DNA of 63,838 nucleotides, the filler included, from Parasitella parasitica NRRL 2501 (Eukaryota; Fungi; Mucoromycota), in the NCBI GenBank assembly GCA_025201805.1. It is 8 parts of 8 records of this genome, joined end to end, with 100 filler letters (N's around TTAATTAATTAA, not from the genome) between each part and the next. Parts side by side here need not be neighbours in the genome. Positions count along the whole stretch, not along the records: positions 44,759 to 52,031 come from MU619242.1; 7 more parts are not named here. One strand, given 5' to 3'. Shown piece after piece: positions 39,366 through 62,921 of the stretch; positions within the stretch are counted from its first letter, which is position 1; each line of letters starts with the position of its first letter. The translations under genes and the position numbers were made by a program. The notes under the pieces were generated by a model. It did no database searches and was not told the DNA's origin. It saw only the letters and a list, made by a program, of their open reading frames with translations.

Positions 39366-39881
39366 GTTGTTTTTTTTTGGGAGAGTTATGAAAGAGGGAG
39401 GTGAAGGATAGTCGTTGTGCTGATTTGTTTCGTTTTTATATTCTGACCCTTTGTTCTGTGCAGTTTTTCTCAGGATTGTCGTTTAGTGTTACGTAGATCC
39501 GAAAGTACAAATCTAAAATGTTATCTTTGGTTGGCACCATTATCTCTTGTGTAAAATAGACTCGAACGAACCAAGCGGGTATACAATATATAAGGCGTCT
39601 TCGTACATCTGCATTGAAATTAATTTGGGATATATTGAAATATGCCATTTACTCGTTTTTTTTTTCTTTTGAATGCATACCAAAATATGCTGGCATGTTT
39701 TGGCTCTCACAAAATCATCTTCAAGGGCAGAAAACAGCAAACCCGCATCACCTGTTATAGACGAACCCGTAACAAAATTCCGTTGTTGAACAATGCTATA
39801 CAACTTAACGAACCAGGCTCAGTTTTTCGTTCTCACATGTACATACTTCTTGATCTGTCATAGTCCCATTTTTTAAGTTGT

Positions 39882-41399
39882 GTGATACAAAGATGCTATG
39901 CTATATTTTCAGATAAATACGATGGGATAATGGCTCTTTCCGACAAACAAACATTGACTACAGGAAGGAATCTCATTGGTGGAAACACTGGAGATTCTCG
40001 CCATAACCCAAACAAACAAAAAGACCCAATGCGCTCATACGCACAGGTAATCAAGTCTAATCAAGCAAGGGATTGCTTTGATTTAGGACGCAGGACAGCA
40101 GCTGAAATAGGAGAACTGTCTGAGGGTGGAAAACTGTACATCCACGCCAAGGATAAAAACTCCATAGTAATTGACGGTGCTCAGTTTACTGAGGCAAATG
40201 TCAATTTTAAGGAACTCGGCGTTCTACTTCGGGAGCAATACCCGGAAGCACTTGGACTTCGCATTCGTAATGCAACCAAAGGCACTCACTACTTCGAAAT
40301 CAATTTTCGTACAGCAGCAGCCAGGGAAGAGGCCCTGAAGAAAGATTTTGCCTACAAAGACAAGAAGGTGACTGTCAGTCGAACCTTCCCCAAGGATGCT
40401 ACTATCATTCGAGTTAGTATCAGTGATCTACCCTTTGAGGACGAGGCCATCCTCAAGGAACATATGAGCGATATCTTTAAATACCATGGTGAAATTCTGG
40501 AAATGGGTCTACTGTACACTGTACATGGTCACTGGTTCACCGGTCGAGGCTTTGTTACTTTGAACAGACTGCCGGGAAAGGACTATAAGGATTTGACACC
40601 TCAAATGGAATCTTGGGACGATAATGAAAATCTAACGCTCACGTACACTAACATGAAGCCTAGTTGTAGTCGCTGTCATGTCACCGATCATGTCTTCGGT
40701 AACTGCCCCACAATGATACGTAAGATGAAGAAATGTTACATTTGTGGTCACTCTGATCATTTGCAAGCTGGCTGCCCAGAGGCTTGGTGGAACCTCAACA
40801 AGATGGCTAAAAAGATTGCCAAACGTAATGCAGCCCATAAGTCGCCCAATCAGCCAAGTACTCCTGATGACACCACGATTATCAAGGAATCTGCCAATTC
40901 TGCTGCTCCCTCTCAGATAGCCGCTAAAGACGACTCGCCAACTATCGTCCAGCAGATTGAGGGGTCTACCTCAGAGCATGAAGGACCGTCGAAGGTTGCT
41001 GACGGTACGACTTCTACCCAGGCCGATCTGGTGGTAGATCACCATGATGCCCTGGGAGCCCCCGACCAAATTGACCCGGCTCTCCCGGAGAGTAGCAATG
41101 ATGCCCACCATCAGGAGGAAAGAGAAGATATGTCTGATGCCGACATGGGCTCTGATGTTGATGATAGCGACTTGGACATGTTTGAAGCTGCCAAGGAAGC
41201 TGAAGAGACCAATGTCTCTATTGAACAAGTTCTGGCCAAACAACGTCTGCTGCTCAAGAAGGCCAAAAACAAGAAGCAGAAAACGATCAAACAGATGAAA
41301 GGTAACAAGGCGTTGGGCCATTCCAGTTTTGGGGCTCGCGTAAGTGGTGGGGTTGCTAAGGGGCAGAAGCAATCCACCAACACTTCTTTAACGTTATAA
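39882..41399 (+). CDS. LINE (L1/Tx1-like) ORF1 gag-like protein with two CCHC knuckles
   Basis: CSRCHVTDHVFGNC and CYICGHSDHLQAGC after an RRM-like region. The true start is probably a downstream ATG. Confidence 0.85.
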   Translation: MIQRCYAIFSDKYDGIMALSDKQTLTTGRNLIGGNTGDSRHNPNKQKDPMRSYAQVIKSNQARDCFDLGRRTAAEIGELSEGGKLYIHAKDKNSIVIDGAQFTEANVNFKELGVLLREQYPEALGLRIRNATKGTHYFEINFRTAAAREEALKKDFAYKDKKVTVSRTFPKDATIIRVSISDLPFEDEAILKEHMSDIFKYHGEILEMGLLYTVHGHWFTGRGFVTLNRLPGKDYKDLTPQMESWDDNENLTLTYTNMKPSCSRCHVTDHVFGNCPTMIRKMKKCYICGHSDHLQAGCPEAWWNLNKMAKKIAKRNAAHKSPNQPSTPDDTTIIKESANSAAPSQIAAKDDSPTIVQQIEGSTSEHEGPSKVADGTTSTQADLVVDHHDALGAPDQIDPALPESSNDAHHQEEREDMSDADMGSDVDDSDLDMFEAAKEAEETNVSIEQVLAKQRLLLKKAKNKKQKTIKQMKGNKALGHSSFGARVSGGVAKGQKQSTNTSLTL

Positions 41400-41405
41400 T
41401 TATTA

Positions 41406-42006
41406 TGAGTAATCATAATAATTATAGCCAAACCTAGAATATCAAATTTGGATCACTTAATTGTAGATATCTACTCAAAGTCAACAATCCCCAATTATCT
41501 GATTCTTTTATTCGGTATTTGAGGTTGCAAAAATTTGACATTTTTGCCTGCCAAGAAACCCATATACCCTCACTACACTTTGAAGATCGGACAGCCATGC
41601 TCAACATGAAATTCCAATCTTATCAAAGCTTATGGACATCCCAATGTGGATTATTGAATTTTAACAAGAATATCAACATGGAAAAAATACACTCCTCCAA
41701 TGATGGTAGATTTATATTGGCGAAATTATCGGTACCTGCAGAGCCAAACTTTTTGCCTATATACGTACTCAACGTATATGCACCTGCGGATACTATACAA
41801 AACAAAACCGTTTTTTACAACAATTTGATAGCATATCTCAAATCGCTAGATAATTATGGTGATATACTGGAACGTATGATTCTTGCTGGTGATTTCAATT
41901 TTCAGTATGATTTACGATTGCCTGGCAACACACCTAGCAAGCAACCAACAGCATTTGTGAACTTTACAGATTCATTTCTGCATGACTGCAACAACAATTA
42001 CAGCGA
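41406..42006 (+). pseudogene. LINE ORF2 5' part (APE endonuclease), early stop, cut by gap
   Basis: MSNHNNYSQT*NIKFGSLNCRYL...DIFACQETH...GRFI...LNVYAPA...ILAGDFN. Confidence 0.85.
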
Positions 42007-42400: not shown

Positions 42401-42415
42401 CTGAGCTACATCCCC

Positions 42416-44338
42416 ATCTTTCTTTCGTCTAAACAATTTTTTGTCTAAATTTTAAAACTTTGAAAATTTTTTCATCAAGTTGAATAGCCCATTCTCTACT
42501 TTTTTCTTGATTCAAGCTTACCATCATTGCCTCCATCGAGAAAATTTCTTCTTCTACTACGGCTTCTCCTGGTCTGAAACGACCTGTATCCTCACTCTCT
42601 CCTCCGCTTTTTGCTTTCGATCTATCTCAACAGATCAAATCTAAACGTTCTTCTCTCTCTCCTAGAGAATCCCTATTTGCGTCCATGGTCAATACTTTCG
42701 ACTCACCCCCGGATTTGTTTGACTTTGGACCTACCCAACCGCCTTCTGCCTCGTCTGAGGGCGATTTGAACATTGCTTCCTTTGTTATCGAGGTTCGCAA
42801 TCGTTTGAGTCGTCTAGAGGCTGCTCACGCTGAGATTTCTCGGCTCCGAGCAGCTCTAGCAGAATCAGAGTCTGATAGAAAGGCTCTTCAAGCCCAACTG
42901 TCTCGTCTGTCTGTTTCTTCTGTTTCTCGTTCTGCTGCTGCTCCTCCAGCCCCACTAAAAGCTGCCTCTTTTGCTTCGGTTACTGCTGCTGCTGCTGCTA
43001 CTGCTACTCCTACTTCTTCTGCTTCCGCTTCCGCTGTTTCTGCTGTCTCTGTTTCTTCTGTTTCTGTCCCCTCTGCTGCCTCTGGTAACAAAAGAAAGAA
43101 AAAACCTGCTGCTCCTCCTCCCTCCATCAAAAAGGCTGCTGCCACAGTCACTCGTTTGTTTGGAAAGCAATCTGATATCCCCTCAGGATATCAGTTTGTA
43201 TATTATGCTATCTCTCGTCGCCGGCCTCTGCAAGAGATGCGCCGAATTCTCCAGGGTATCAAACTGAACAATTCCCGCATCTTGGATATTCAGTATCCCA
43301 CGCCACATGTCATCTCCTACCTCGTCCACAATGACTATGCTCTCACTTTCACCAGTGGGATGCATTTGAATGGTCGTGGCTGCTCCCCCCTCTCCGACTT
43401 CGATCCATGCGATCCAAAAAATCTGCTGGATCCAAAGTATGCCTCTCTGTCTCCTTCTCTTCGTGCTGAAAAAGCAGTAGAGGTTGAAAATCTTCGTTGT
43501 CTTCGTGCTCTGTCGTTTGTTCGTCGTTCGGTTCGTCTCTCTGTTGCTCGCTCGTTTCTGTATTACGAACGTATTACACAGAAACGGTACGATGCTATTC
43601 TTGCTGAGGAATTGTCTGCTCGTGCTGCTGCCGCCCCTGCCAAAACTCTGTCTCCCTCCGATGCCCAGGATCGCCTGGCAAAGAAACAGCGTCTCAGTTA
43701 TCTCCATAACTTGCTTTTCTTTGACCCTGCCACTGCCAAAACATTGGCATATACTGCGTCCCCGGTTCTCTCTGCTTCTTCTCCTGCTGCAGACACGGTA
43801 ATGCCAGAAATCTCTGGTGTTTGATCGTGTTTGGTAGGTTAAGTATTGTCTCTTTGTCTCCCTCCTTGTTTCTGCCCGCCCGTCTGCTCTCTTTGTTCTT
43901 TTCTTTTTCTTATCCTACCTGGTCTTTGCTTTCTCGTCTCCTTCTTTCTTTACACTACAGGTGTATAGAATCTGCCTCTCCTTTTTTCTCGTCTTTTTGT
44001 GTTTTCCCTGGTTGCGTCTGTTGGTTTTGTTTGTGCTGCTGTATGCCGGTCGAGGTCTCCTCTATTGCACCGTGCTCATACACCACAGCTTCTCTCTCAG
44101 CCTTCCTTCTTCCCTGCCGCCCGACCCCTCTCTCCTGAAATTACAAGTTTTTCCAGTTTCTTGACTTACGATTGGCCTCGCATTTCCTTTTCAGGTAACA
44201 TTCCGATGTTACCTGACTGGATCTGTCATCTTAAGTTTTAAACTTTTTTATTGTAATAGATTCTCTTAGTATAGCAAATTTATGATCATACCGATTAATG
44301 CAGAAAATACTAATGTAAATAAAAACCAAACCTTTCAA
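42416..44338 (+). mobile_element. ORF1-only non-autonomous non-LTR retroelement (~1.9 kb) bounded by CTGAGCTACATCCC direct repeats
   Basis: Single ORF 42685-43824 (frame open from 42511), homologous to the ORF1 C-terminal domain of the LINE at 47099-49270. No RT. 3' UTR has a hairpin and AATAAAAA. Direct repeats at 42401-42414 and 44339-44352. Confidence 0.8.
42685..43824 (+). CDS. LINE ORF1-like protein (coiled coil plus conserved C-terminal RRM-like domain)
   Basis: GYQFVYY...NSRILDIQYPTPHVISYLVHNDY...DFDPCDPKNLLDPKYASL...LRALSFVRRSVRLSVARS, matching 49744-51309 and 47099-49270. Confidence 0.8.
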   Translation: MVNTFDSPPDLFDFGPTQPPSASSEGDLNIASFVIEVRNRLSRLEAAHAEISRLRAALAESESDRKALQAQLSRLSVSSVSRSAAAPPAPLKAASFASVTAAAAATATPTSSASASAVSAVSVSSVSVPSAASGNKRKKKPAAPPPSIKKAAATVTRLFGKQSDIPSGYQFVYYAISRRRPLQEMRRILQGIKLNNSRILDIQYPTPHVISYLVHNDYALTFTSGMHLNGRGCSPLSDFDPCDPKNLLDPKYASLSPSLRAEKAVEVENLRCLRALSFVRRSVRLSVARSFLYYERITQKRYDAILAEELSARAAAAPAKTLSPSDAQDRLAKKQRLSYLHNLLFFDPATAKTLAYTASPVLSASSPAADTVMPEISGV

Positions 44339-44352
44339 CTGAGCTACATCCC

Positions 44353-44658
44353 CACCTTTCTTTCCCCTAACCAATTTTTTACCTAATTTGGAACCTCCAC
44401 TTTTTGTAAGAAATTGTATAACACTTCATCCATCCATCTTGATAAAAGCTTCATCATTGCATCCTTCGAGAAAATTAACTCATCTACCTCGTTGCCTTCA
44501 GATTCTCATTTTTCTGTTGCGTTTGATCTCGTACAACAAATAAAGTCCAAACGATCCTCAACAACATTTGGAGATCCCAAGCCCGCTCCTCCTGCCCAAA
44601 TGAATCTATCAACACCAGATATGATTGATTTCGGTGTCACTGCCCTCCCGTCTGCCTC
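44353..44658 (+). mobile_element. 5' end of a further, diverged ORF1-only-type element (cut by gap)
   Basis: Starts ACCTTTCTTTCC like 42416 and encodes IIASFEKI...AFDLVQQIKSKRS...PDMIDFG, paralogous to IIASIEKI...AFDLSQQIKSKRS...PDLFDFG. Confidence 0.75.
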
Positions 44659-44758: not shown

Positions 44759-47102
44759 TGGCGGATTTGAGAGGATTCCATCTATAGCCCAGAGAAATTG
44801 AATGTTGCTCAGCTATATTAAGAAGTGCCTGTGTATTACGTGCATTTCCTAATATAACAACATCATCTGCAAAGAAAAGTGAGTTCAAAAGGAGTGGAGA
44901 GGGGGTATTACCGCGAGAAATTGGCTGTGGTGGTGGCATACGAATTGTTGAATATATAGCGCTATTGGCTGATGTCGGCTCAGCACGAAGAGCTTGAGCG
45001 AGCGAATTGATATAGATCAAATACAAGTGTGGAGATAGGGTAGAGCCCTGCAGAACACCTGTAATCGGATTGAAAGGAGTGGTGGAGACGTGGCCATTGA
45101 GGAGGACCTCAATTTGCACGTTATTGAACAGTAGTTGAAGTGTGGTCAGGAATGGAATATCAATGTTGACATTCTGCAATGCCTTCCATATAATATTCCT
45201 ATCGGTTGTGTCGTATGCAGATTTGATGTCTAAAAATAATAGAGTAGGAAATTCTTTGTGTTTTTGTTTATACCTGATTATTAGTTCCTGTAGGCATAGA
45301 GCCTGATCCAATGTACTTCGTTGGTGTCGAAAGCCGCCCTGTACTGGGTCTAGTGGTACGGAGCGAGGTAAGAGAACGTTGTAAAGACAGATTTCGTAAA
45401 TCTTGCGAAATGTGCAAATCAGGCTGATAGGGCGATGGTTTTTGGGATCATGCACGGGTCCTTTTTTGTAGATGGGGATAACTTGTGCATGGTTGTAGTC
45501 GGTGGGGATGATGGCAAACTTCCAACAGAGAGAGAAGAAATGGTGTAATACAGGTGAGATAAGATCAGTTATTGGTTTGAGCATCTCTGACTTGATATGA
45601 TCAAATCCAGGAGCTTTGTTGGTGGGTAGGCATTTGATAGCGTACGCCACGTCGTCAGAATCAAACAAGATGGGCAGATCAAAGCCCTCGTCAGACAATG
45701 GGAACTGAGTCGGCACCTGTTCGACCGCTGGATTGATATACTTACCATCGTAAGTGTCTTGCCAAGAGGTAGTGATTGTGTCGACAGCCGTTTGGGGACC
45801 ATCTACATGTTGGAATACGCTGCTAGCTAAACGGCTTTTGCTGCGTTTAATGTGCTTGATCTTGTTGGCTGCCTTACTGAATTCAGAGGTGGATAACTTG
45901 TCACAGAATTGTTTGAAATAAAAGCGCTTAGTTTTATCGATGATGGAGCGAACAATATCTGCTGCTTCTTGAAACTGTTTCCAAAATAAAATTTTGTTGA
46001 ATCGGTTAGCATATTTCCATTTTTTGTACAAACGCTCTCGTCGATGGCAAGCATCTGCTAGTTCTTGTGTATAAAACCATTTCCAGGTTTTTGGGCGCGG
46101 TGAGTGTCGCTGTATTGTTGCATCTAAAGAGCTATGGATTATGTCAATCAGGTTAGTATTTAAACGATCAATATGTTCTTGTTTCTGTTGATGACCCGGC
46201 ATATAGGACAAAATGGTTGGATCCACAAGCTGTAAAAATTCATCCAGACGTGAACGAATATGGTTACGGTATTGACGAATGTGGTCAAGATGGCGATTAG
46301 GGTGCTCTTGCGATGGCTTGAACTTGTTTAGGTTCCATAAGAAACGTGGATGGACATTTGTGATAGGCGGTGGATCGAAATCATGAGGTAATTCAAAATG
46401 AACCATCTTATGATCTGATCCTAAATAGACGTCAGTTGTGATAGACATAGAGATACCCTCCATATCAAACGGATGTGTGCTCATAAAAAAGTCGATAATG
46501 CTGGTTTTGTCAATAGGATTTGCTTCAGTGCCCTTGATGTACGTAGGCACACCAAAAGCATGGTCAACATTGTGCAAAGTAAGGCAATGAGTGTGAAGAA
46601 AATCTAAGAACGGTTGATTTCGACCATTTTGACGCTTATCGCCAATATAGTCGCCAAGGCGCGTATTGAAATCGCCACAAAGTAAGACATGTTCAAATTC
46701 ATAGTTGGCGGCATAATGTTCTAATGAATCACTTAGTAGATCAAAACAGGCTTGATCGTCTAGGGAAGGAGGTAAGTATGTACATAGGATGAGATAATTT
46801 TGGCATTGACAGGGGAGGATGAACTTGGACTCTTGATAGATGGGTAGAGGAAGGACTGTATATTGGAAAGAAGGGTTGATGAGTAGCGAGATACCAAATT
46901 GTCCTCGGCGAGCCCTGTCAACGCCAATGCCAAAATTGTGGATTTGGGTCCATGTCGTAGGTAAAGAGCGTTGTGGTAAAAGCCATGTTTCAGTAATAAA
47001 AAAAAGATTAGTTTGCATAGGTAAATTGTCAAAAATAAAATCCATAGTTTCGCTTGTGATGCCCTGGGCATTCCACAAGGTAATGCCTAAAGATTTACTC
47101 AT
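44759..47102 (-). CDS. LINE ORF2: APE endonuclease plus reverse transcriptase (3' end in gap)
   Basis: WNAQG, ITETWL, LCGDFNTR, IIDFF and SDHKMV (APE). KAPGFD, NHRPISL, QGGFR, FLDIKSAYD, GVLQGSTLSP and FFADDVV (RT). Uninterrupted up to the gap. Confidence 0.95.
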
Positions 47103-49270
47103 AGTGGCATATTGGTGTCACTTGCCGCGGGTGGTGACTGGGGAGCCTCGTGGGGAATAGAAGCAGGATTTGATGGTGTTGCTGTGGTGTTAATATTGGA
47201 TGGAAATACCTGTGCAATTTGTTGTTGTTTTTTGTTCTGAAGGAAAGCATTGAGTTCGGGTGTAGTCAAAATTTCTTTGCGGTGAAAATATTTTGCCACC
47301 GAGTGGCATGTGGGATAACGCATAAAGGAAAGTGAGCGCATCAAGTTATTTTTGAATATGGTTTGTAATTTGATTACCTTTTCGCTATCTGGCAAGGCAG
47401 AATAGCGTTGATCTCGAAGATGGATAGGATCAAAATAATCATAAGAGATTGGATTAACTTTGGCGGCTGTAAATCTGGAGAGAAGCTCTGCTTCATAATT
47501 GGTGTGGATCAGTAGCCCGATCACATTCCAATCAGGACAGTGAGCATCTAGAATACGGACGTTGTCGATGCCTAGAAGTGTCAATTTGGATCGAATGATG
47601 CTTGGCTTCATTCGTTTGTTACTAGGGAAATAAATGTATTTGTATTCAGCAGTAGGTGGTTTTTGTGTTGCGTTGAATATCGTGAAGGCAAGCTCCAAGT
47701 TGGCAGCAGTTGGCTGATGGGATCTAAATTGACCGGGTGCATATTTGATTTTAATGAATCCAGGCTTTCGGGCCTGTTCAGCATAACTGGGAATAGCTGG
47801 GACTAATGGGGGGAAGGAGGGGTTAGTAGTATCAGCGTCCATATTATCTAGGGTGGTTTCCGTATTTTGTGGCGTATTGGTATTAGCTTGTTCCCTGGCT
47901 TGTGTGCTATTGTGGTCAAGATGCATGTCAGTAGTATTCATATTATTGTTGGTATTCATAATTGTATTTTTTTGTCTTTTTTGTTCTTTCATCATGTTTT
48001 TTAACTGTTCAATTTCTTTTTTTTGCATTTCATTTTCTTTTTTCTGTTCGTTTAGTTCTTTTTTAAGCTGTTCATTTTGTTCAATCAAAGTATTAATGTA
48101 GTCAAATTTTTGTTGGTTGTCATTAGCTTGTTCCGTAAGCTTTTTAACACTGTCAAGTAAAAAATTAATCACTTGAAAGTTGTTTGATGCTGTTGGATTA
48201 GTATTGTCGTTTTCAAGCCAAATTGGCAACATGTCATCCTGACTGTCGTGGATAGAGGAGATTGAGGCAGTTGGTTGAGCATCTGTAATCATAATATTTT
48301 CCTCTACAGTGGGAGGGGAGAGGCTGGATTCAGAATGTTGGTGGTTGAGGTGGGACATCATATCCACAATGTTGGAGATATTAAAAATTCGCTTGCAATG
48401 GTTACATTGGAAGCGAGGCCTAGGGGGTGAAGATTTGGTAAATCCAAATTTGACCAAGGTGCCAATGGTTGTGCACTCAATGCAGCTGATTTGCTGTTTC
48501 AGTTTCTGGTACTGCTCAGAAGAAGCAATATCCTCGGCAGAGATCAGGGATGCAGGAGTTCCAGGAAGAGGCGTGAAGTGGGCTGGTGAGGCTGTTGTAA
48601 GATCAGTGTTTTTTGGTTTTTTTGAAATGATTCCAAGGGCCTGATTCATATGAGCCATAGATTGTTCGCGATGACAAACAATACATTGGAACTCCAATGG
48701 TGGTGAATTTCTGTTCATGTCGTCGTCCTCGTCCGAATCAGAGTCGTGTCTCAGGGATGTAATGCTAATGCAACCAATGTTAGTGCAGTGTTCACATGAC
48801 AATTCGCTTTTTGATTTCCCAAATTTGGATACTAGTTCATTCTGTAAGCCAGAGAGCGCACCCGAAAGGCGACTCAGAATGGATGGGGTAACTGGTGTTT
48901 CCGTAAGCTTTCGTTTGTTACTGGTAGAAATTGACTGTAACATGGAGTTGGATGTGTTAATTGAGATAGGTAACTTTCGCATACGCTGTTTGGGAGGCAT
49001 CTGATGGTGGAGTATTTGTGCTGCTTCAGGAGGCGGAGATGATGAATCCGACGCATGAACTATTGCTTTTTTTATTGTTTGTTTTTCTTTGTTTTCTGTA
49101 TTTTTTTCTGATTCTTTTTTATTATTGTTTTCTTTTTTTTCAATGTTTTTTTCTTCTTTTTTGTCATTTGTTTTTTCATTTTTTTGTATTGTTGCAATTT
49201 GCTGGATTTCATCAGACGAGCTCGCACCCGGCCGATTAGTACCTGGTGGAATAATAGGAACACCACGCAT
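47099..49270 (-). CDS. LINE ORF1 (two C4 Zn-ribbon-like motifs, coiled coil, RRM-like C-terminal domain)
   Basis: CEHC...CIVC and CIEC...CNHC, then YKYIYF...NVRILDAHCPDWNVIGLLIHTNY...YDYFDPIHLRD. The stop overlaps the ORF2 start as ATGA. Confidence 0.88.
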   Translation of the reverse strand: MRGVPIIPPGTNRPGASSSDEIQQIATIQKNEKTNDKKEEKNIEKKENNNKKESEKNTENKEKQTIKKAIVHASDSSSPPPEAAQILHHQMPPKQRMRKLPISINTSNSMLQSISTSNKRKLTETPVTPSILSRLSGALSGLQNELVSKFGKSKSELSCEHCTNIGCISITSLRHDSDSDEDDDMNRNSPPLEFQCIVCHREQSMAHMNQALGIISKKPKNTDLTTASPAHFTPLPGTPASLISAEDIASSEQYQKLKQQISCIECTTIGTLVKFGFTKSSPPRPRFQCNHCKRIFNISNIVDMMSHLNHQHSESSLSPPTVEENIMITDAQPTASISSIHDSQDDMLPIWLENDNTNPTASNNFQVINFLLDSVKKLTEQANDNQQKFDYINTLIEQNEQLKKELNEQKKENEMQKKEIEQLKNMMKEQKRQKNTIMNTNNNMNTTDMHLDHNSTQAREQANTNTPQNTETTLDNMDADTTNPSFPPLVPAIPSYAEQARKPGFIKIKYAPGQFRSHQPTAANLELAFTIFNATQKPPTAEYKYIYFPSNKRMKPSIIRSKLTLLGIDNVRILDAHCPDWNVIGLLIHTNYEAELLSRFTAAKVNPISYDYFDPIHLRDQRYSALPDSEKVIKLQTIFKNNLMRSLSFMRYPTCHSVAKYFHRKEILTTPELNAFLQNKKQQQIAQVFPSNINTTATPSNPASIPHEAPQSPPAASDTNMPL

Positions 49271-49406
49271 GTGAATGTTCTTGATAGGAGACGATGTTAG
49301 GAGGTTTGATGATCCCGTAGTAAGGAGTTGGAGATATCACGTGTGGTGGATCAGAAAAGTATAAATATGTTGATGTTTTCAACGCGCGAGAAAACTACCT
49401 ATACTT

Positions 49407-49421
49407 CTCTTCGGTAGTATA
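49407..49421 (+). repeat. 15-bp duplication of the tRNA-Asp 5' end (putative target-site duplication)
   Basis: CTCTTCGGTAGTATA is identical to 51362-51376 (tRNA positions -1 to +14). Confidence 0.9.
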
Positions 49422-51361
49422 AACTAAACTTTTTATTATAGAATGACTTCAAATAGACTGCGTCCCATTCGGGCAAGGTGTCTCATCGGGGCAGGTTGGC
49501 GATTGTTATATATGGATCGAAAAACTTGACATGTCAAGAAAAAAAAGCGGGGAAATCGAATTTACAAAATGTGGGGAAAAGGAGACTACACTAAGATGGG
49601 AGTAAATTATTATAAGCTGCATAAAAAAATGAAAAATTATAAAAAATAAAATATTATGGGCGTCAAATATAAACCAAAAGTAGAAGTGAAAAGAGTTGTC
49701 AGATGGAAAGGGAGCGGCGAGAGAGAGAGAAGAAAAAAATATATTATACCTCCATGGCATTCAAGGCAGCAGCAGGAGCATTAGCATTGGTACCAGTGGA
49801 TGGTTCAGAGGGCGGAGGAGAAGAAGCAAGAGCGAGGGCGGAGACAGGATCGAGATATTTCAAGTTGAAATAATATTCAACTCGAATTCTCTTTTTCTCT
49901 TTTCTCTCGGCAGCAGAGACAGTGATATTAGTGGCAGGTTTCTGTGCAGCACGAGCTGCCAGTGTATCAGCCAAAATGGCATCAAACTGAGCTTGAGTAA
50001 TGAAGTCTTGCAACAACATAGATCGCGCAACAGAAACACGGACCGAGAGACGAACAAAGGTGATGGCACGGAGCACACGTATATTTTGCAAATCCATCAA
50101 TTTTTGCAAACGAGTGGCAGGGTTAGCGGCAGAGAGGGCAGGGTCATGAAGATTGGCATCTTCAAGCGGATCAAAGTCCAGCAAAGGATCAGTATTCAAT
50201 TTTTTGTGCATTGTGGAGGTAAACTCCAAGACGAAATCAGCATGCACCAAGAAACAGACAACACGGTGAGTGGGGAAATGAATGTCAATAACTCGCGAGT
50301 TACTGACACCAATTAGAGGGAGGATCTTTTCACGGTACCAAGATAATAGAGGATGTTTCTGGGCTTTATAGTAAATAAAGCGATAGCCATCACTCGAGGA
50401 AGGCTCAGATTTTGGACTGAATTTTCTAGAAAAAGCAGCCAGAACGGCAGGAGAAGGAGGAGCAGGTTTTTTTGCCTTTCGTTTTCTTTTGACAACAGTG
50501 AAATTGTTATTGGATTGAGTGTTGGCAACAGCAGACGCCGCAACAGCAGCAAAAGTAGGAGTTGTAGTAGTGGTAGCAGCAGAGGAAGGACCTTTGGAGG
50601 TAGAGGTGGCAGGATTTGGAGCAGCAGCTTTATTAGCAGCGGCTTTAGAGGCTGGCCTCGAGGTAGAAGAAAGTACAGGTAAAGATACTTGCGCTTTCAG
50701 CAAATTTTGAGCATCTGTCAATGCAGTTTTTACTACATTGAGTTCAGCTCGTAATTTGGCATTTTCAATGGCTAAGCTTTCAACACTTGCCAGACGAGAT
50801 TCTTGATACGCAAGTTTTTGTGTTAGATCACGAATTTGTGATTGGAAGCGGAGTGCCCACGAAGGGGTTTCGTTATCCAGATCGACAGAAAAAGGAGTAG
50901 CAGGAGAGAAATTGGGGATTGTGGTGGTACCTGAATTCGTGAATTCAGTATCTATTTTATTAGATACCTTGGTCATTTGGGGTAAAGAAGCACGACTGGG
51001 GTTGGTTTTAGTACGAGAGTGTTTTTTGAGAACTTTTTGTGAATCAACACCAAAAAGTGGAGGAGACAAAGAGGAAAAAGGTCGTTTAGATTTGTCTGAA
51101 GAAACTTCAGCAAATGTTTTGTTGGGTTGAGAAGAAGATGCTTGAGAAGTCGATGATTTTGAAGAGTGATTAAAACTTTTTGAGTCCTTAGTAGAGGGAG
51201 ATGCCGTTGTTACTGTTGGTACAGTACGAGATCTAAGTTGCCGTGGCAAAGGAATTTTAGAGTGGTTTGCTTTCTTGGTAGACAGTTTCAATGATTGTTG
51301 CTTTTTCAAAAATATTGCGGGTGTTGAACCTATATGTTATGATGAGAAAGCGAAAGAAAGG
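49422..51361 (-). mobile_element. ORF1-only non-autonomous non-LTR retroelement inserted at the tRNA-Asp 5' end
   Basis: 1940 bp between the two 15-bp repeats, one ORF (49744-51309), 5' end CCTTTCTTTCG, 3' end AATAAAAAGTTTAGTT, no RT. Confidence 0.85.
49744..51309 (-). CDS. LINE ORF1-like protein
   Basis: KRPFSSLSPPLF, coiled coil, GYRFIYY...NSRVIDIHFPTHRVVCFLVHADF...DFDPLEDANLHDP...LRAITFVRLSVRVSVARS. Confidence 0.8.
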   Translation of the reverse strand: MKKQQSLKLSTKKANHSKIPLPRQLRSRTVPTVTTASPSTKDSKSFNHSSKSSTSQASSSQPNKTFAEVSSDKSKRPFSSLSPPLFGVDSQKVLKKHSRTKTNPSRASLPQMTKVSNKIDTEFTNSGTTTIPNFSPATPFSVDLDNETPSWALRFQSQIRDLTQKLAYQESRLASVESLAIENAKLRAELNVVKTALTDAQNLLKAQVSLPVLSSTSRPASKAAANKAAAPNPATSTSKGPSSAATTTTTPTFAAVAASAVANTQSNNNFTVVKRKRKAKKPAPPSPAVLAAFSRKFSPKSEPSSSDGYRFIYYKAQKHPLLSWYREKILPLIGVSNSRVIDIHFPTHRVVCFLVHADFVLEFTSTMHKKLNTDPLLDFDPLEDANLHDPALSAANPATRLQKLMDLQNIRVLRAITFVRLSVRVSVARSMLLQDFITQAQFDAILADTLAARAAQKPATNITVSAAERKEKKRIRVEYYFNLKYLDPVSALALASSPPPSEPSTGTNANAPAAALNAMEV

Positions 51362-51362
51362 C

Positions 51363-51434
51363 TCTTCGGTAGTATAGTGGTGAGTATCCCCGCCTGTCAC
51401 GCGGGAGACCGGGGTTCAATTCCCCGCCGGAGAG
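51363..51434 (+). tRNA. tRNA-Asp (GTC)
   Basis: 72-nt cloverleaf TCTTCGG...CCGGAGA-G, anticodon arm CCCGC-CTGTCAC-GCGGG, B box GGTTCAATTCC, followed by a T-run Pol III terminator. Confidence 0.97.
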
Positions 51435-51550
51435 TTTTTTTTTCATTTTTTTAGGAGGTGTACATAGACGTCGATTGAAGATTGGAAATGTTAAAAAACG
51501 TTATGAAATTACAATTATAATCAAGTGTGGTGTGCTTCATTATAAAATTA

Positions 51551-52031
51551 CAGTAGGTGGATTAATAGTCCGGATGTTTTGCAAAATTCGCTAAAACAAG
51601 ATGTAGATCCTGAACAAATTGTCCAATCATTACGAAATGAACGTCATTCAAGAGAAAAAATAGTCTTTAATATACTATAAAGATTTTATTTTGGTTGGTC
51701 AACGGAGATCGAAATAATTCGGAACTAAAATTCATGTGTGCATCCGGACCATTTTTCAGGGTACTCAAACGAATATGGAAGCTCATCGAATTTCATGCAG
51801 TTTTATATCAAACAGTCACGACTGATTAGTTATCAGTCATAAAATATAAAAACTGTTTTAGTTTATTTTTGGTCTTTTCTTTCTTTCTTTTATATATCAA
51901 ACTCGCATCTCATTGATAATATATAAAATGGTACGCTCTTTGCCTATGGACACTCAAAATAGTATCAAGAATTTATTGCAATCTGGTTATTCTTATTCAC
52001 AAATTATGAAACGCGTTCCTGGAGTCAAAAA
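51551..52031 (+). mobile_element. 5' end of a Tc1-like transposon (cut by gap)
   Basis: TA|CAGTAGGTGG terminus and an internal inverted GTCCGGATG/CATCCGGAC pair. The ORF from 51928, MVRSLPMDTQNSIKNLLQSGYSYSQIMKRVPGVK, resembles a Tc1 N-terminal HTH. Confidence 0.65.
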
Positions 52032-52131: not shown

Positions 52132-55092
52132 ATTTTATGATGGGAATCTAGTCTTGTTCACTTCATGCCCCCCTGCTAAACGCAAAAAAATTTGCGTTGA
52201 CCCAGTATGCGGCAAATTTAGATGACTAGGGAACGAAATGGAATCGGTAGACTTTTATAAATATATTCTTTATTTTACGCATAAATTGGAATGCGCCGTA
52301 ATATGGGTTACTTGCCGTTACATTGGATTTAATTAAGTTAGAGTATTTGATTTTCGTTGGCATGTTCGGTGCGCTCGATAAGAAAATCAAAGGGTAACAT
52401 GAGTAGTAATTTATCGGCAAGCTTAAGGTATTTTGGTTTGTGGTGAGCTTTGGCTCTTATATTTGTTTTATTTATATGTTTGTCAATAGAGATGGTGATT
52501 TTTTTTTTTTTTTTTTCAAAATTTGTTTGCACGTTTGTGGAGACGACGAGTTTGCTTTGATAGATTTTTTCGTTTGATAGAGGGGTTCATATGTTTTGTA
52601 TCTCCGGGTGAAGTGTCATTGTTTTCATTTTGTAATGCTTCTCGTCGTTGTAGTTCTTTCACTTTGTCCCAATAATTGGCAATGGGAATAGGCGAGGAAA
52701 ACAGGTCAGGGGTAAGCCAATCATTCTCTCTTTCTCCGTAACCGCACCATTTTGTCAGATATTCGGTGGTACCATCTGGTAGTACACGATGATCACGTAT
52801 TGCTTCGACTTCATATACTTTTTCTTCAAGAGCTGTTTCATCTAAAGATACTACTTTTAGCTCTGAAGGTGTATATTCACGGTGCAACAATTCATTTGTA
52901 TCGTCTTTAAGTACGTAGGTGCCGGCCTGAGTACGTCTGACGACAATGTATGGTCCTGAATAGAGAGGTGCTAATTTATTCTTTCGACCTTCAGCAAAAC
53001 GTATCATTACAGGCGTTCCTGTTGGAATCTGTTCTATTATGTAATGTTTTTTGTTGAATTTTTCGCGATGTAATTTGGCTAATTCATCTGTTCTTTGTTG
53101 GATAGCGGGAAAGACGATGTCATTCATAATTTCTGTTCTTTTTTGAAGTTCTTCAAGTGTCAACGTCTTTCTGCTATTCCTGTTAATTTGTTTAGGTTTT
53201 AAATTTACTTGTCTAGCAAACATCAGGCTAAAAGGGGTACTTGCAGTACGATCTCGTACTTTCATATTAATGGCTAATTGAATTATAGGCAGACGATTAT
53301 CCCAGTTTCGTGTGTCGTTTCCACACATCTTTCTTAAGGTCGAGGAAACTATTTTCACAGCATTTTCGCTATGACCATTTCCTTGTGCATAGTAAGGGGT
53401 GCTGTGGATCATGCCAATGTTTAGTGATTTGTATATGTATTCAGAGAGATTTGATTTGAACTCGCGTCCATTATCAGATAAGGTAACATTTACTGCTAAT
53501 CCATAATCTCCATAAATTGATACTAATAGATTGGCAATAGTATCACTTTGCTTGTTTGGGGCTGCTCGGGCAATGATGTACTTCGTACAGATGTCTACAA
53601 CAACAAGAATATAACAGTTTCCCCGCTCAGTTACAGGTAAGGGTCCGATCATATCCATGCTGATGAAATCAAATGGTTCATACGATACAACACTTTTCGC
53701 CGGGTTAAACCCTTTTTTTGCAACATTATGCAATTGGCACTCCTTACAGGACATCAAAATTTCCTTGACATCATTATAAATGTTCTTCCAATGAAGGCCA
53801 TGATAGGTGTGGATATGCTTTACGACAGCTGCCATACCAAAATGACCAATTTTATGGGCATCCTGAATTATTTGTTTTCGATCACTTTTGGGCGGGCAAA
53901 CATAGTCAGTTGGGGCCTCCTTGAATTCTTTATCAATGATTTTGACAGCAAGTACGTTTAGATTTGGATCTTTCGAATAAATTTTCCTTTGTTTTATAAT
54001 TTGGTTTCCTTTTACTCTTCGTTGTAAAATCAATTTTTCTAATTTCTTGATTTGTTGAGCATATTCATCCGCAAGCTCCTCATCTTCAGTTATAGAAGGG
54101 TACAATCTTGATAGACGATCAGCAAGAATGTTTTCCATTCCTTTTATATGTGCTACCGAGAAATTATATTCTCCCAAAATTTCCAGATAACCTTGGAGAG
54201 TGCTATTTAATGTGGAGGATGTGAACAAATATGTAAGAGCGATATGATCACACAATACAGTTATATTGTTATGACCCCACAAAAGTGGTTTGTATTTTTG
54301 AAAACCATATACTATGGCTGCAGTTTCTCTTCGATTTGTGGACCAATTTCTTTCGGCACTGTTCAAAGATCTGCTTACGAATGCGACATGTTTGATGCGA
54401 CCATAATCATCTTTTTGAAATAGACATGCTGATATTCCTAAAACGCTAGCATCTGTTTGCATATAATATGGCTGTGATGGATCAGGTGCGTAAAGGATTT
54501 GGCTAGACATGAGTATTTGCTTAATTCGTTGTAGTCTATCCGTATGTAATTGATTCCATTTTCCCTTGATGTTTTTCTCATTTCTGAGTGCGTCAATAGG
54601 GGCGGAAATTTTGGATAGCATCGGACAGTAGCTTCTAAGATGGCTGATAACTCCCATAAGGCTACGTACTTGTTTTGTTGTTTTTGGTATTTCCCAGGAA
54701 TCGATATTTGACAATCTTTTTGTATCAATTTTTGTTATATCTTTACTGATAATGAAACCTAACAAATGTACACTTGTTTTGAAAAAAGAACATTTATCAA
54801 TGTTGATTCTTAAGTTTACACTAGTTAAGCGGTTGATTACTAATTGAAGCATCAACGAACTTGAAGTTGCGTCTATTCCCCAAACAACAATATCGTCCAA
54901 ATAATGACAAATTCCAGCTTGGAAATTATCATCAATGCGACTAATGTCTTTATTTTGTTGAAGATACAACTTCTTTAATTCGTTTTTTAGTTCTTGTTCG
55001 ATACCATCAAACAAAACGCTCATTGTATAAACAAATTGGCTAACAAGGAATTTTAAACCAAAGGGGGCTCTACTCCATTGGTAGCTCTGATT
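52132..55092 (-). mobile_element. Ty3/gypsy chromovirus, pol 3' part (RT-RNase H-integrase-chromodomain), PPT and start of the 3' LTR
   Basis: ORF 52516-55023 and upstream: APFGL, HYLDD, QTDAS, ADRLSR, HHCC (H..GHFG...CKEC), SMDM, SDNGREF, GPY motif, YEVEAIRDHR..YLTKWCGY chromodomain. PPT AGCAGGGGGG followed by TG at 52165. Confidence 0.95.
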
Positions 55093-55779
55093 NNNNNNNN
55101 NNNNNNNNNNNNNNNNNNNNNNNNNNNNNNNNNNNNTTAATTAATTAANNNNNNNNNNNNNNNNNNNNNNNNNNNNNNNNNNNNNNNNNNNNAGGCTTTG
55201 CACTCATTACATTTATTATGTCCATCCAATAACAATAAAAAATTTATTGATATATAAAAGCAACTTTTCAAAAACATCACAATAAGATTTCAGAAGAGTG
55301 CCTCTTGTGCAATGATTGCTTTTTAGAAGACTGCAGCATACGTTGAAGCCAAAAGTCTCCTATATTTAATTTAAGCAATCAAGCCAATCTCGTTGTTTTG
55401 ACCAGCTATATAAACACATTTTTCTTTGCCATTTCTGGCAGTAAATTGAATTACAAAATAAAAAGAACAAATTTTTGCTCTCGCATGAACATTTGCGTGA
55501 TCGTGCGAACAAAAATAACTTTTACCAAAAACAGATGCAATCTTTGGAATGCGATATCTCAACGAATACTTAGTATTGAAAGTTACTACAAGTACAAAAA
55601 ATAACCCAAACTATCTCACAAAAAATATTGTTTAATTAAAAACGAGTTATCTCGACTTTTTTTATAAATGTACATTTGGGCCAAATTCATTTATGGTCTC
55701 ACAAGAGCATTAATGCTCCCATGACCTTTAAAATGTTCCCATTTGAGCACATTTATGTTCACCGAGAACATTCAGGACG

Positions 55780-57820: not shown

Positions 57821-60165
57821 TTTTTTTTTTTTTGTGTATTAAAGTGTACCTTTATTAACTAAATGCAACTAATAGCTATGGAAAAAATGTACTAACACTA
57901 CTTATTTAAGGTCGCTTTACGAGTGGAAATAGCTTTGCCCGTAGTGCCCTTGCTATTGCTTTTGTTACCTTTATTGCTTGTAACAGAGGTGTTGATTTTC
58001 GCCTATTAATTGAAGGTTGAATCTCATCTCAATTCCAATATTGACACCGACATTCAAATGGAATTGTATAAAGACTTTTAGAAACCAGGACCAGAGCAAT
58101 CCGGGCTTCCTTTTCAATCTTTAATAAAGACCCTACGTTCTCCGTGATATAATCGCTTGTAGTCTCTTTATTTAATTGTCTTTGGAAATAATCGTTATTC
58201 ATATAACTCTCAAGAGGTACTTCCATAAAGCTTGGGTTGGGATTCAGCTTGCTTTTTCTTGGCTGTACCTGACGTAAAGCTGCGTCAGTCGACAGTTCTG
58301 CAGGCATGTCCAACTTCATATTCATAGCCACTGTATCTGAAGCATACTTGGAATACGCAGAGCTTCTATCTGCGGATGCTTTCTGATCACCTGCCAAAAC
58401 CACCTTGTCATTATCATCTACATCTTCGTGCATGTTGTCAACCAAAGATTTATCATCATTTTCAGCTTCAATAGCTATAGATTCAGCATTATCCAATTCT
58501 TCTTCATCTTCAAAATCTTCTGACTCCTCATTGTCAACACATTCTTCTTCACTATCCCTGAATTTTTCCTTGTCTACAAAACCGGATAAAGTAGCAGGCG
58601 AATTGACAGAGGCTGCAAAGTTGGCTTGCTGTTTTTGCTTATCAAACTCGGAACAAAACCGGATCATATGGCCTGGCTTATGGCACCCAAAGCACATACG
58701 TTTGGCCAACTCTGGACATTTAGCACGAATATGACCACTATGACGACAGAAATGACAAACAGGAGGAGCACCCTTGAATGTCGCTGCCACAAAGCAATCA
58801 AGTTCGCAGAGATAGAGCATTCTATCTAGAGGATTTGCTGGCCTGTGCTCACCCTCCACTAGCGTACCAATAGAATTGTCAATTAGAGCCGAGAAATTGC
58901 CCTCGAAAAAACCACCACGAGTGTACTGCCTCAGCTGGAGAACTCTATCATAATACGAGAGGGATGCAATCAAGTCATCTAGAAGAAGCGGGTCTGTGAC
59001 AATTCGCACTAAAGTGAACTGCACAAGCTTCATCTTGCTGTAATCTTTGGGCTCCTGAGGGAGTACGGCCTTGTAAACGATCCCATCAACAGTGACACCA
59101 GTCTGTATAGCCTTTTTCGCATTGTCTGCCTCCTCAAGTTTGGCTTCAATAAATAAGGAACCATCATCCTTGGAGTCATAAATGTTGAGAGGACGAAATT
59201 CAACCAAGGGAGAAACCTGAGCCTGGATTGCCTTGTAGGCATCGACGCGATCACCAAATAAACCTTTTCGAAATGTAAACAGAACAGAGCCAGGAGTAAG
59301 CGACTGTTGCAAAATTACCATTGCTTTAGTAGCTAGGATTCCTCCAGTAAAATCCTCATCTTCATAAATTACTGATCCTACTAATTGATAAGACGACGCT
59401 GTAGCCGTGGCTGAACGTCTTTTGTTGTGTTCGTAGTGTCGAATACCAGCACCACGAGCAGCTAGTTTTGCCCAAGTGCTGCCAGCCCAAGTTGCTTCAG
59501 GAATAGTAGGCATTATACGTTGTTAAGCTGTTATCGTAAAACAGTGGCGTAGTGTATGTAGCACGTATCGAGTGTTACTATTGCTATTTGTTCGAAAATT
59601 CAGAATATGTCGAAACGAAGGTTAATCGTTCTGAAATTTAGATATGTTGTAAAGCTGAGATGGATGTATTTAAAAGTAGTTGGTTGCGAGATGGATGTAT
59701 ACTGGTTGTCGAGATATCGTGCTTCAAAGTTGAACTTTTTAAAAAAAGTGATGTATACGCGTATAGTATGATAGTCTGCATGACACAAGGCTATCTTACT
59801 ATCCATGACAGGCGGGAAAACCAGAGAGACAGGACCAAGGTCTTTGTTCACATCCAAATATACACGACGGACTTTTTTAGGTTACGCCACATGACGAGTA
59901 ACGCCCTCGACAATGCCAAGATCAGGCTGCCAAAAGCAAATGCCAGACACCAAGTAGCGAGAATCCAAAGTAGCAGGATCAGCTATCGAAAAAACTGACG
60001 ACACAGTACTGAGTACATAACACAATGGAAAATCAAGAAACCACCTAGCCGACCGACTAGAGGAAGGAACAAGAGACCATTATAGCCCACGTTTCTGTAT
60101 GAGTGATTATCGTGGAGTGTAACTTCTGTAGTGTGTGTAGTTGTGTTGTCGAGAAACCTGCAAAA
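57821..60165 (-). mobile_element. L1/Tx1-type ORF1-only element with its own poly(A) tail
   Basis: ORF 58029-59513 with CHFCRHSGHIRAKC and CFGCHKPGHMIRFC knuckles. AATAAAGGTACACTTTAATACAC(A)13 follows within ~200 bp, with no ORF2. The 5' boundary is approximate. Confidence 0.72.
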
Positions 60166-60330: not shown

Positions 60331-60469
60331 AGTGCAAGCCTCTACCAACACTTGTTAATGTTTACTTGTGCTTTTCATGTATTTCTTTCTTGGATGGATC
60401 AGCCATGATCCATCTGGATTTTATTTTAATGTAATTGTGGTGCTATATAATAGGTGCCATTTCATTACA
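60331..60469 (-). repeat. LTR end (family A), partial
   Basis: Near-identical to 62720-62859 and terminates ...CATTACA (TGTAATG on the minus strand). Confidence 0.7.
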
Positions 60470-62681: not shown

Positions 62682-62921
62682 CATGTGCCAGGGTTGTAGG
62701 AGATTGTACTTTGATCAGGAGTGCAAGTCTCTACCAACACTTGTTAATGTTTACTTGTGCTTTACATGTATTTCTTTCTTGGATGGATCAGCCATGATCC
62801 ATCTGGATTTTATTTTAATGTAATTGTGGTGCCATATAATAGGTGCCATTTCATTACAAGATGTATTATGAATAAAGGTGTAATTCTTTGGCAGATTTAT
62901 TTTATCAGACTTTTGACAACA
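62682..62921. repeat. nested LTR junction: family A end joined directly to the 3' part of a family B LTR
   Basis: 62720-62859 matches 60331-60469, and 62860-62921 matches ~56568-56633. Confidence 0.7.

What the first reader, a model, noticed from the sequence alone, without database searches (positions are those of the whole stretch)
49407..51434. Directly visible insertion into tRNA-Asp that leaves the tRNA gene intact
Within a single contig there is a perfect 15-bp direct repeat, an intact cloverleaf with A/B boxes and a T-run terminator, and an element 5' end only 2 bp from tRNA +1. Only the upstream TFIIIB-binding flank is replaced. Inference: this is a safe-harbour insertion, and the element may use the open chromatin of the tRNA gene for divergent transcription.
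Basis: seen in the sequence. Interest (0 to 1): 0.8.

Follow-up and report, generated by a model that had tools for sequence, protein, structure and literature searches.

The report
Retrotransposon family landing inside tRNA genes
In a Mucor-type fungus, a 1.9-kb jumping gene with only one of the two usual proteins sits inside the start of a transfer-RNA gene yet leaves a complete copy of that gene, and its relatives sit at the same spot in other tRNA genes, so the family likely aims at tRNA genes; whether the rebuilt gene still works is untested.

Summary
In detail: an intact tRNA-Asp(GTC) (51363-51434) and an exact 15-bp repeat covering tRNA positions -1 to +14 (49407-49421, 51362-51376). 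Between the copies lies a 1,940-bp antisense element with only a LINE ORF1-type frame and no reverse transcriptase, in a Mucoraceae fungus. It is one of a family. All 3 loci fetched by protein similarity alone, and two more elements in the window, start at a tRNA gene or a tRNA 5' stub (Lys, Ala-type). The 3' junction is at +14 in both cases that have an intact tRNA to compare, and at +14/+15 in four stub-only cases. Five of six 5' ends start with the same 10-nt motif right after base -1, including a two-ORF relative with an endonuclease-RT-type ORF2. Most likely a helper LINE nicks the tRNA A box after +14 and copies the RNA in antisense. The duplication spans the gene's 5' part, so the coding sequence is rebuilt and copies stack upstream. 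'Safe harbour' is plausible but unproven: a conserved TATA-bearing flank is displaced and tRNA activity is untested. No such Mucorales family turned up in nine literature searches. New variant of a known kind; interest 0.72.

The parts
51363..51434 (+). tRNA-Asp(GTC), intact coding sequence with A and B boxes
51435..51443 (+). T9 run, Pol III terminator-like
51362..51376 (+). Repeat copy 2 (tRNA -1..+14), part of the intact gene
49407..49421 (+). Repeat copy 1, tRNA-Asp 5' stub (-1..+14); inferred target-site duplication ending at the inferred first nick
49422..51361 (-). Element A: 1,940-bp ORF1-only non-LTR retrotransposon, antisense to the tRNA
51352..51361 (-). 5' terminal motif YCTTTCTTTC, shared with C1, C2, L002 and the two-ORF element L003
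49744..51336 (-). ORF1 frame (P0001, 530 aa stop to stop): predicted coiled coil 159-217, RRM-like fold 317-388, helical C-terminal part; first ATG at codon 121, after a conserved motif at codon 84
49432..49437 (-). AATAAA 10 nt before the 3' junction; no poly(A) tract
49355..49406 (+). Displaced upstream flank, shared with other contigs (likely other tRNA-Asp loci); TATAAA at 49360-49365
44760..49354 (-). Element B: two-ORF APE-RT LINE, head-to-head, 5' end about 54 bp upstream of the stub's +1 (boundary inferred); cut by the contig end
47099..49336 (-). B ORF1 (P0002), homologous to A's ORF1 (BLASTP E 1e-17)
44760..47102 (-). B ORF2 (APE endonuclease PF14529 + RT PF00078), 3' part missing
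42402..42416 (-). tRNA 5' stub (Ala-type, -1..+14) after the 3' end of an element C0; separate contig
42417..44339 (+). Element C1: 1,923-bp ORF1-only relative (ORF 42511-43824, P0004)
44340..44354 (-). Second Ala-type tRNA 5' stub, between C1 and C2
44355..44658 (+). Element C2, 5' end only (contig ends)

Best explanation
Element A is an ORF1-only non-LTR retrotransposon lying antisense in the 5' end of an intact tRNA-Asp gene between two copies of tRNA bases -1 to +14, and it likely got there by target-primed reverse transcription by a helper LINE whose endonuclease likely nicks tRNA genes just after base +14 of the A box. Steps: (1, inferred) the helper's APE endonuclease nicks the non-template strand between +14 and +15, most likely by reading the A-box bases T8-R9-G10-Y11-T12-N13-A14 that all targets seen share (about 55%; tethering by TFIIIB/C about 35%). 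(2, inferred) The freed 3' end primes cDNA synthesis from the element RNA's 3' end, 10-17 nt past an AATAAA, without a poly(A) tract. (3, inferred) The other strand is cut at about -1/-2, so -1..+14 is duplicated. (4, shown) The coding sequence, both boxes and the terminator are whole on the far side; a 14-nt stub and the old flank end up 1.9 kb away. (5, inferred from stacks seen) Each new insertion at the rebuilt gene pushes older copies upstream, giving element-stub-element arrays. The ORF1-only lineage keeps its own ORF1p under selection and would borrow ORF2p in trans, as HAL1 does. Whether the rebuilt tRNA gene is transcribed is untested (about 55%).
For: Loci were fetched by protein similarity only, and 3 of 3 have a tRNA or stub at the element's 5' end. 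L001: intact tRNA-Lys(CTT), 23-bp repeat = +14..-9. L002: Ala-type stub. L003: two-ORF element, ORF2 36% identical to the B family, stub then the same 5' start as A. In the window C1 and C2 follow the same Ala-type stub; a generic stub pattern hit 2 places in the window, both these junctions. That 14-mer is the exact start of an ARAGORN tRNA in 79 of 121 viral-contig matches, 52 of them Ala. 5 of 6 5' ends begin YCTTTCTTTC after base -1; 6 of 6 3' ends have AATAAA 10-17 nt from the junction. Contigs of 4 of 4 runs from four studies cover A and B with 2-4 differences in A. They also hold a second 5' junction of A, 18 nt shorter, at the same -1 boundary of a variant tRNA-Asp (loose end listed for 3 of 4 runs, the same 80-bp contig in all 4), and two further sequences that diverge 11 and 16 nt into A's 3' end. 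No ORF2 remnant in A: five ORF2 queries gave no tblastn hit at E<=1. ORF1 dN/dS 0.22-0.53 in 6 of 6 pairs. A's ORF1 is homologous to ORF1 of B (E 1e-17) and of L003 (E 3e-15).
Against: No empty allele of this exact locus was seen, and no whole genome was held, so off-target copies could not be counted; the sample is 7 element 5' ends. Element B, an APE-RT LINE of the same superfamily, is about 54 bp off and lacks the 5' motif. L001 has a 23-bp repeat and a different first ~39 nt. In the four stub-only junctions the boundary may be +15, since the next base also fits a tRNA. L003's stub starts a tRNA in only 6 of 120 viral-contig matches, and L003 ends before an RT domain. The helper of A is not identified: in a quick tree the ORF1s of B and L003 fall outside the ORF1-only group. 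No contig has 31 letters on both sides of the 49421 junction. dS against A is near saturation (1.35-1.61).
Confidence: 0.8

Rival explanations
1. Same retrotransposition, but the site is set by binding of ORF1p or ORF2p to the Pol III factors TFIIIB/TFIIIC, as in Dictyostelium TRE5-A, not by reading A-box bases; B at about -54 would be the TRE5-like member of the same system.
For: Three tRNA types with different sequence are hit at one position; B is head-to-head at a TRE5-like distance (40-54 bp in PMC5911963, passage); the ORF1-only group has its own C-terminal extension in 20 of 132 proteins.
Against: TRE5 uses a window of tens of bases (37-90 bp, PMC5006619 table passage), whereas the 3' junction here is fixed to one base in both loci with an intact tRNA; the cut lies inside the stretch that TFIIIC binds.
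Confidence: 0.33
2. The precision comes from the RNA: transcripts read through the element's 3' end into the stub, and this tail base-pairs with the nicked target strand to prime reverse transcription, which would explain the missing poly(A).
For: 6 of 6 3' junctions lack poly(A); every copy is followed by a stub complementary to the primer strand.
Against: AATAAA 10-17 nt before each junction points to RNA cleavage at the junction; related elements sit in different tRNA types; a nick must still be placed. It is an add-on to, not a replacement for, the main model.
Confidence: 0.2
3. The 15-mer is an att-like core duplicated by a site-specific recombinase, as for islands at bacterial tRNA genes, or by a Dada-type DNA transposon.
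For: Exact direct repeat overlapping a tRNA end; Dada DNA transposons target tRNA nucleotides 8-13 (PMC8869645, passages).
Against: No recombinase or transposase frame; the only protein is a LINE ORF1 homologue; repeat length varies (15, 23) with one fixed end; a 5'-shortened junction exists; Dada duplicates 6-7 bp.
Confidence: 0.04
4. Assembly artefact or chance repeat.
For: The window is a chain of short contigs joined by linkers; tRNA genes are repeats that can misjoin.
Against: Chance expectation 1.7e-4; overlapping contigs from four studies follow the same path from B through the stub and A; independent loci show the same layout.
Confidence: 0.02

Closest known systems
Dp_NLTR-A of Dictyostelium purpureum (PMC5006619, PMC5911963; passages read)
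   Same: Non-LTR retrotransposon found 2-6 bp upstream of the mature tRNA sequence, the same 5'-end distance as here.
   Different: It has an RNase H domain; none was found in the full-length B-family ORF2 P0018. The passages give no duplication reaching into the tRNA (0 hits for 'TSD'). No ORF1-only partner is described; amoeba, not fungus.
TRE5-A/B/C of Dictyostelium discoideum and Pp_NLTR-B (same papers)
   Same: Two-ORF APE-RT elements upstream of tRNA genes, with further insertions at occupied genes; element B sits at their distance.
   Different: They use a window ~40-54 bp upstream, outside the gene, and end in poly(A); A, C1 and L001 have their 3' junction inside the gene and no poly(A).
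HAL1 (half-L1) non-autonomous elements (definition from PMC5753468, passage; Bao and Jurka 2010 not held)
   Same: Non-autonomous LINE derivative that encodes only ORF1p.
   Different: HAL1 derives from mammalian L1; no tRNA targeting in the passage read; parent clade here unresolved.
Dada DNA transposons (PMC8869645, PMC3706591; passages)
   Same: Insert at a fixed site in the tRNA A box (nucleotides 8-13) of several tRNA types.
   Different: DDE transposase, 6-7 bp duplication, gene is split; here a retrotransposon whose duplication spans -1..+14, so the gene is rebuilt.
Utopia, Keno, NeSL-1_TV, LIN15/LIN25, Dewa (PMC4640811, PMC3706591, PMC4494074; passages)
   Same: Sequence-specific non-LTR elements in small RNA genes, with a precise 3' and a variable 5' boundary.
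   Different: Utopia uses a restriction-like endonuclease and leaves disrupted U2 genes; Dewa targets the tRNA-Leu spacer. None of the passages describes Mucorales or a rebuilt gene.
Grem-LINE1 of Mucorales (10.1101/706580; passages)
   Same: Two-ORF APE-RT LINE of the same fungi.
   Different: Grem-LINE1 ORF1 has CCHC fingers and ORF2 a zf-RVT domain, and it is centromeric; A, B, C1 and L003 ORF1 have 0 CCHC knuckles and P0018 has no PF13966; that paper has 0 hits for 'tRNA'.

Membership tests
Non-LTR retrotransposon inserted by TPRT | Target-site duplication with one fixed and one variable boundary | tested here: met
   15 bp (A), 23 bp (L001), both ending at +14
Non-LTR retrotransposon inserted by TPRT | 5'-shortened copies | tested here: inconclusive
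   One junction 18 nt shorter; second insertion or diverged allele not told apart
Non-LTR retrotransposon inserted by TPRT | Poly(A) or simple-repeat 3' tail | tested here: not met
   0 of 6 3' junctions have a tail; 6 of 6 have AATAAA 10-17 nt before
HAL1-like ORF1-only element | Encodes only a LINE ORF1p, no ORF2 remnant | tested here: met
HAL1-like ORF1-only element | ORF1 kept by purifying selection across copies | tested here: met
   dN/dS 0.22-0.53 in 6 of 6 pairs
HAL1-like ORF1-only element | ORF1p of coiled coil-RRM-CTD type (architecture of L1 ORF1p recalled) | tested here: inconclusive
   Model pLDDT >90 over 198 residues; best match 4n0t_A, Z 7.8, rmsd 2.3, 71 aligned; middling Z
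HAL1 proper (L1-derived) | Parent in the L1 clade | not tested
   No reference RT set was at hand; L1 ORF2p is the best PDB hit (E 1e-15) but PDB holds only L1 and R2
TRE5 | Insertion ~40-54 bp upstream, outside the tRNA | tested here: not met
   A, C1, C2, L001, L002, L003 start at -2 to -10; only B fits the distance
TRE5 | ORF1p binds TFIIIB; B box needed | not testable with these tools
   Needs binding and mutant assays
Dp_NLTR-A | 5' end 2-6 bp upstream of the tRNA | tested here: met
   2 bp in 5 of 6 elements
Dp_NLTR-A | RNase H after RT | tested here: not met
   P0018 has only PF00078, PF14529, PF03372 at E<=0.05; tested on the B family, whose role as helper is inferred
Grem-LINE1 | CCHC zinc fingers in ORF1, zf-RVT in ORF2 | tested here: not met
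Dada | DDE transposase and 6-7 bp duplication | tested here: not met
Functional Pol III tRNA gene | Complete cloverleaf, A/B boxes, T-run | tested here: met
Functional Pol III tRNA gene | This copy is transcribed | not testable with these tools
   Needs pre-tRNA leader reads or Pol III ChIP

The most novel reading that the evidence does not exclude
Mucorales harbour an old, undescribed clade of APE-type LINEs and ORF1-only satellites that cut every kind of tRNA gene at one base of the A box, choose the second cut so that the gene is rebuilt, bring a conserved 5' end that serves as the gene's new leader and upstream flank, end without poly(A), and start ORF1 at a non-AUG codon: a damage-free, base-precise retrotransposon whose target regenerates after every insertion.
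Probability: 0.4. Interest if true: 0.85.

Novelty: new variant of a known kind. Interest (0 to 1): 0.72.

Why it matters
Known tRNA-targeting retrotransposons land beside the gene, and known elements that land inside small RNA genes break them. It gives a direct test of whether an APE endonuclease can read the A box across tRNA types, and whether tRNA targeting in gene-dense genomes lowers host cost. It would also explain repeat stacks and assembly breaks at tRNA genes in Mucorales, and a base-precise element at a redundant locus is of interest as a site-specific gene-insertion model.

Tried and rejected
No whole genome was held, so no genome-wide count and no empty allele. Sequencing-run search: no RNA holder listed. 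Reads were laid on 44760-51355 only, so the tRNA body and downstream flank were not compared across isolates. Contig depths were not used as copy numbers. ORF1 and ORF2 scans of viral contigs, and the ORF1 scan of prokaryote genomes, found nothing. Pfam found no family for P0001 and only coiled-coil look-alikes among 129 relatives. Profile search of PDB sequences gave only coiled coils (best E 0.008; L1 ORF1p at E 0.066). Foldseek gave no match at E<=0.001, and L1 ORF1p was not among the 50 VIA-align rows, which does not exclude it. The protein atlas did not answer. MFE folding of the tRNA alone was not significant (z -1.34) and was not used. An old long duplication in L001 was rejected: flanks beyond -9 align no better than shuffles (482 of 1000). 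A replacement TATA box in the elements' 5' ends was looked for by eye: a TATA-like word near -30 in A, L001 and L002, unclear in C1, C2 and L003, no control run, not counted. The careful tree did not finish; the quick tree used 128 of 132 rows and the ORF1-only group has SH-aLRT 94, shuffle control 24 of 500. Loose ends at 49147 (low complexity) and 49691 (one run, 27 letters) were set aside. No complex prediction was run. Earlier-findings look-ups by sequence, place and two word sets were empty.

Full report
OBSERVATION. The window holds one tRNA gene, tRNA-Asp(GTC), at 51363-51434 on the + strand (ARAGORN; Rfam 60.2 bits, whole model), followed by nine T. Bases -1 to +14 of it recur exactly at 49407-49421 and nowhere else in the window at up to 3 mismatches; chance expectation is 1.7e-4. 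Both copies are in one 7.3-kb contig.

HOST. Named homologues of the proteins here come from Mucor, Parasitella and Rhizopus (ORF1: 6 named rows of 12 hits; ORF2: best named hits 78-80% Parasitella and 72% Mucor), so this is a Mucoraceae fungus. No whole genome was held.

ELEMENT A. The 1,940 bp between the repeats (49422-51361) carry one long frame on the - strand (P0001). It has no Pfam family but is homologous to ORF1 of the neighbouring two-ORF LINE (E 1e-17). Five ORF2 queries found no remnant in A at E<=1. The AlphaFold model has a 59-residue helix, a small alpha/beta domain and a helical C-terminal part; the best structural match of the small domain is an RRM-containing chain, 4n0t_A, Z 7.8, rmsd 2.3, 71 aligned, which is middling. 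That order is the one I recall for L1 ORF1p. A is therefore an ORF1-only element, like HAL1 as defined in PMC5753468 (passage). Its ORF1 and those of three relatives show dN/dS 0.22-0.53 in 6 of 6 pairs (dS near saturation for pairs with A). In a quick tree of 128 of 132 ORF1 cores, A, C1, L001 and L002 fall in one 22-row group with Mucor and Rhizopus proteins (SH-aLRT 94), which holds all 18 tree rows with a C-terminal extension. The family at large has 734 clusters at E<=0.001.

IT IS A FAMILY HABIT. Three loci came back from scans by protein alone, and 3 of 3 have a tRNA or tRNA stub at the element's 5' end. L001 is an ORF1-only relative, 37% identical to A, head-to-head with an intact tRNA-Lys(CTT) and flanked by a 23-bp repeat equal to tRNA +14..-9. 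In A and in L001 the base after the stub differs from tRNA base 15, so the junction is exactly +14 in both. L002 and the window's own tandem elements C1 and C2 (42417-44339, 44355 on; separate contig) each follow a 14-nt stub plus base -1; this 14-mer is the exact start of an ARAGORN tRNA in 79 of 121 viral-contig matches, 52 of them Ala. A generic stub pattern hit 2 places in the window, both these junctions, and none near the two CCHC-type ORF1 frames. L003 is a two-ORF element, ORF2 36% identical to the B family over its endonuclease part, whose first 12 bases equal A's and follow a similar stub; that stub is less well supported (6 of 120 matches start a tRNA), and the contig ends before an RT domain. 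Of six 5' ends, five begin YCTTTCTTTC right after base -1; L001 is the exception. Six of six 3' ends have AATAAA 10-17 nt before the junction and no poly(A). In the four stub-only cases the junction could be +15.

OTHER ISOLATES. Contigs of four runs from four studies were laid on 44760-51355. All 4 cover B and A throughout, with 2-4 differences in A and an in-frame 3-base gap, so the layout is not peculiar to one assembly, although no single contig has 31 letters on both sides of the 49421 junction. They also show a second 5' junction of A, 18 nt shorter, joined at the same -1 boundary to a tRNA-Asp that differs by one base (loose end listed for 3 of 4 runs; the 80-bp contig in all 4). This is a second insertion or a diverged allele. 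Two more sequences share the first 11 and 16 nt of A's 3' end and then diverge; I infer that they include the stub, since their records were among those not shown. The -1 boundary therefore does not depend on a complete 5' end, which fits a preferred second cut.

THE LEFT FLANK. 49355-49402 and 49376-49420 are shared with other contigs that diverge further left, and their loose ends carry the same AAAAGTATAAA in register in 2 of the 4 printed consensus lines (X1, X2), an A-rich variant in the others. I read this as a conserved native tRNA-Asp flank with a TATA box at -48; a shared 5' end of B-like elements is the alternative. Beyond it starts element B, an APE-RT LINE, head-to-head at about -54, a TRE5-like distance. 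One locus cannot show whether B is targeted.

MECHANISM. Shown: position, orientation, duplication, intact coding sequence, recurrence at three tRNA types, stacking. Inferred: a helper ORF2p nicks the non-template strand after +14, primes cDNA there, and the second cut falls near -1, so the gene's whole 5' part is duplicated and the gene is rebuilt on the far side with the element's 5' end as its new upstream region. The targets share T8-R9-G10-Y11-T12-N13-A14 and the junction is base-precise, so I favour direct A-box reading (about 55%) over TFIIIB/C tethering (about 35%). The helper is not identified; L003-type elements share A's 5' end and are the best lead. Harmlessness is open: upstream TATA-like elements are key for a subset of tRNA genes in fission yeast, plants and insects (PMC11346459 and PMC2040200, passages), and this insertion moves a TATA-bearing flank 1.9 kb away.

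COMPARISON AND NOVELTY. TRE5 lands ~40-54 bp upstream and Dp_NLTR-A 2-6 bp upstream (PMC5006619, PMC5911963, passages). Dada DNA transposons split tRNA genes at nucleotides 8-13 (PMC8869645, PMC3706591, passages). Utopia leaves disrupted U2 genes; NeSL-1_TV and LIN15/25 are tRNA-specific (PMC4640811, passages); Keno and other Tx1 targets are in PMC4494074 (passages). Grem-LINE1 differs in domain content and place (10.1101/706580, passages). Two later Mucor papers mention 'other LINE' or repeats without tRNA targeting in the passages read (10.1101/2022.12.01.518749; 10.64898/2026.10.23.761428); their supplements were closed and may list these elements. Nine searches (listings seen) showed no tRNA-targeting LINE or ORF1-only element in Mucorales; Repbase and most subscription journals were not searchable. 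Unchecked notes of this scan report LINEs 17 and 59 bp upstream of tRNA genes in other fungi, so fungal tRNA targeting as such may be common; insertion inside the A box with rebuilding of the gene was not among the 8 of 16 shown.

VERDICT. Real, and more general than first reported. New variant of a known kind: tRNA-targeting non-LTR retrotransposons with a HAL1-like satellite. Confidence 0.8 in the mechanism, interest 0.72.

Noticed in passing
window 51336-50976 (-), 42511-42685 (+), L001, L002: In 4 of 4 ORF1-only elements the conserved K-R-P-x-S-S-L-S-P-P motif lies upstream of the first in-frame ATG, and its codons vary synonymously; A has no ATG in its first 385 nt. A non-AUG start is likely.
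   Followed up: partly
window 44760-49354: Element B lies head-to-head about 54 bp upstream of the tRNA-Asp stub, lacks the family's 5' motif, and has an ORF1 with extra cysteine/histidine clusters (weak zf-BED hit). A TRE5-like mode or a long duplication are both possible.
   Followed up: partly
window 51551-52031: A Tc1/mariner-like end after a TA 116 bp downstream of the tRNA, with a short HTH-like frame from 51928 (HTH_7 E 0.002, below cut-off). In run X1 a 23-of-24 matching end (compared by eye) is joined at the TA at 49400, 8 bp upstream of a tRNA-Asp start.
   Followed up: partly
L001 192-230: About 39 nt at the element's 5' end unlike other family members, after a 23-bp repeat; source unknown.
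   Followed up: partly
L003: A fungal-type LINE contig of 2,184 bp inside a bacterial genome bin; likely contamination of that bin.
   Followed up: no
window 39864-42004 (+) and 58029-59522 (-): Two ORF1-like frames with two CCHC knuckles each, the first followed by an endonuclease-like frame; Grem-LINE1-like, no tRNA stub found by the pattern used.
   Followed up: partly
window 52516-55140 (-): Ty3/gypsy chromovirus pol fragment (RT, RNase H, integrase, chromodomain).
   Followed up: no
window 38661-39482 (-): Frame with a sodium:dicarboxylate symporter hit (PF00375, E 1e-14).
   Followed up: no
window 60340-60443 and 62729-62832: A repeat of about 100 bp at the starts of two small contigs, with a short internal palindrome; possibly a solo LTR or MITE.
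   Followed up: no
window gaps at 19519, 42007, 44659, 52032, 55093, 60231, 62582: 100-base gaps, those read holding a stop-in-all-frames linker: contigs are concatenated, so order across gaps means nothing.
   Followed up: yes
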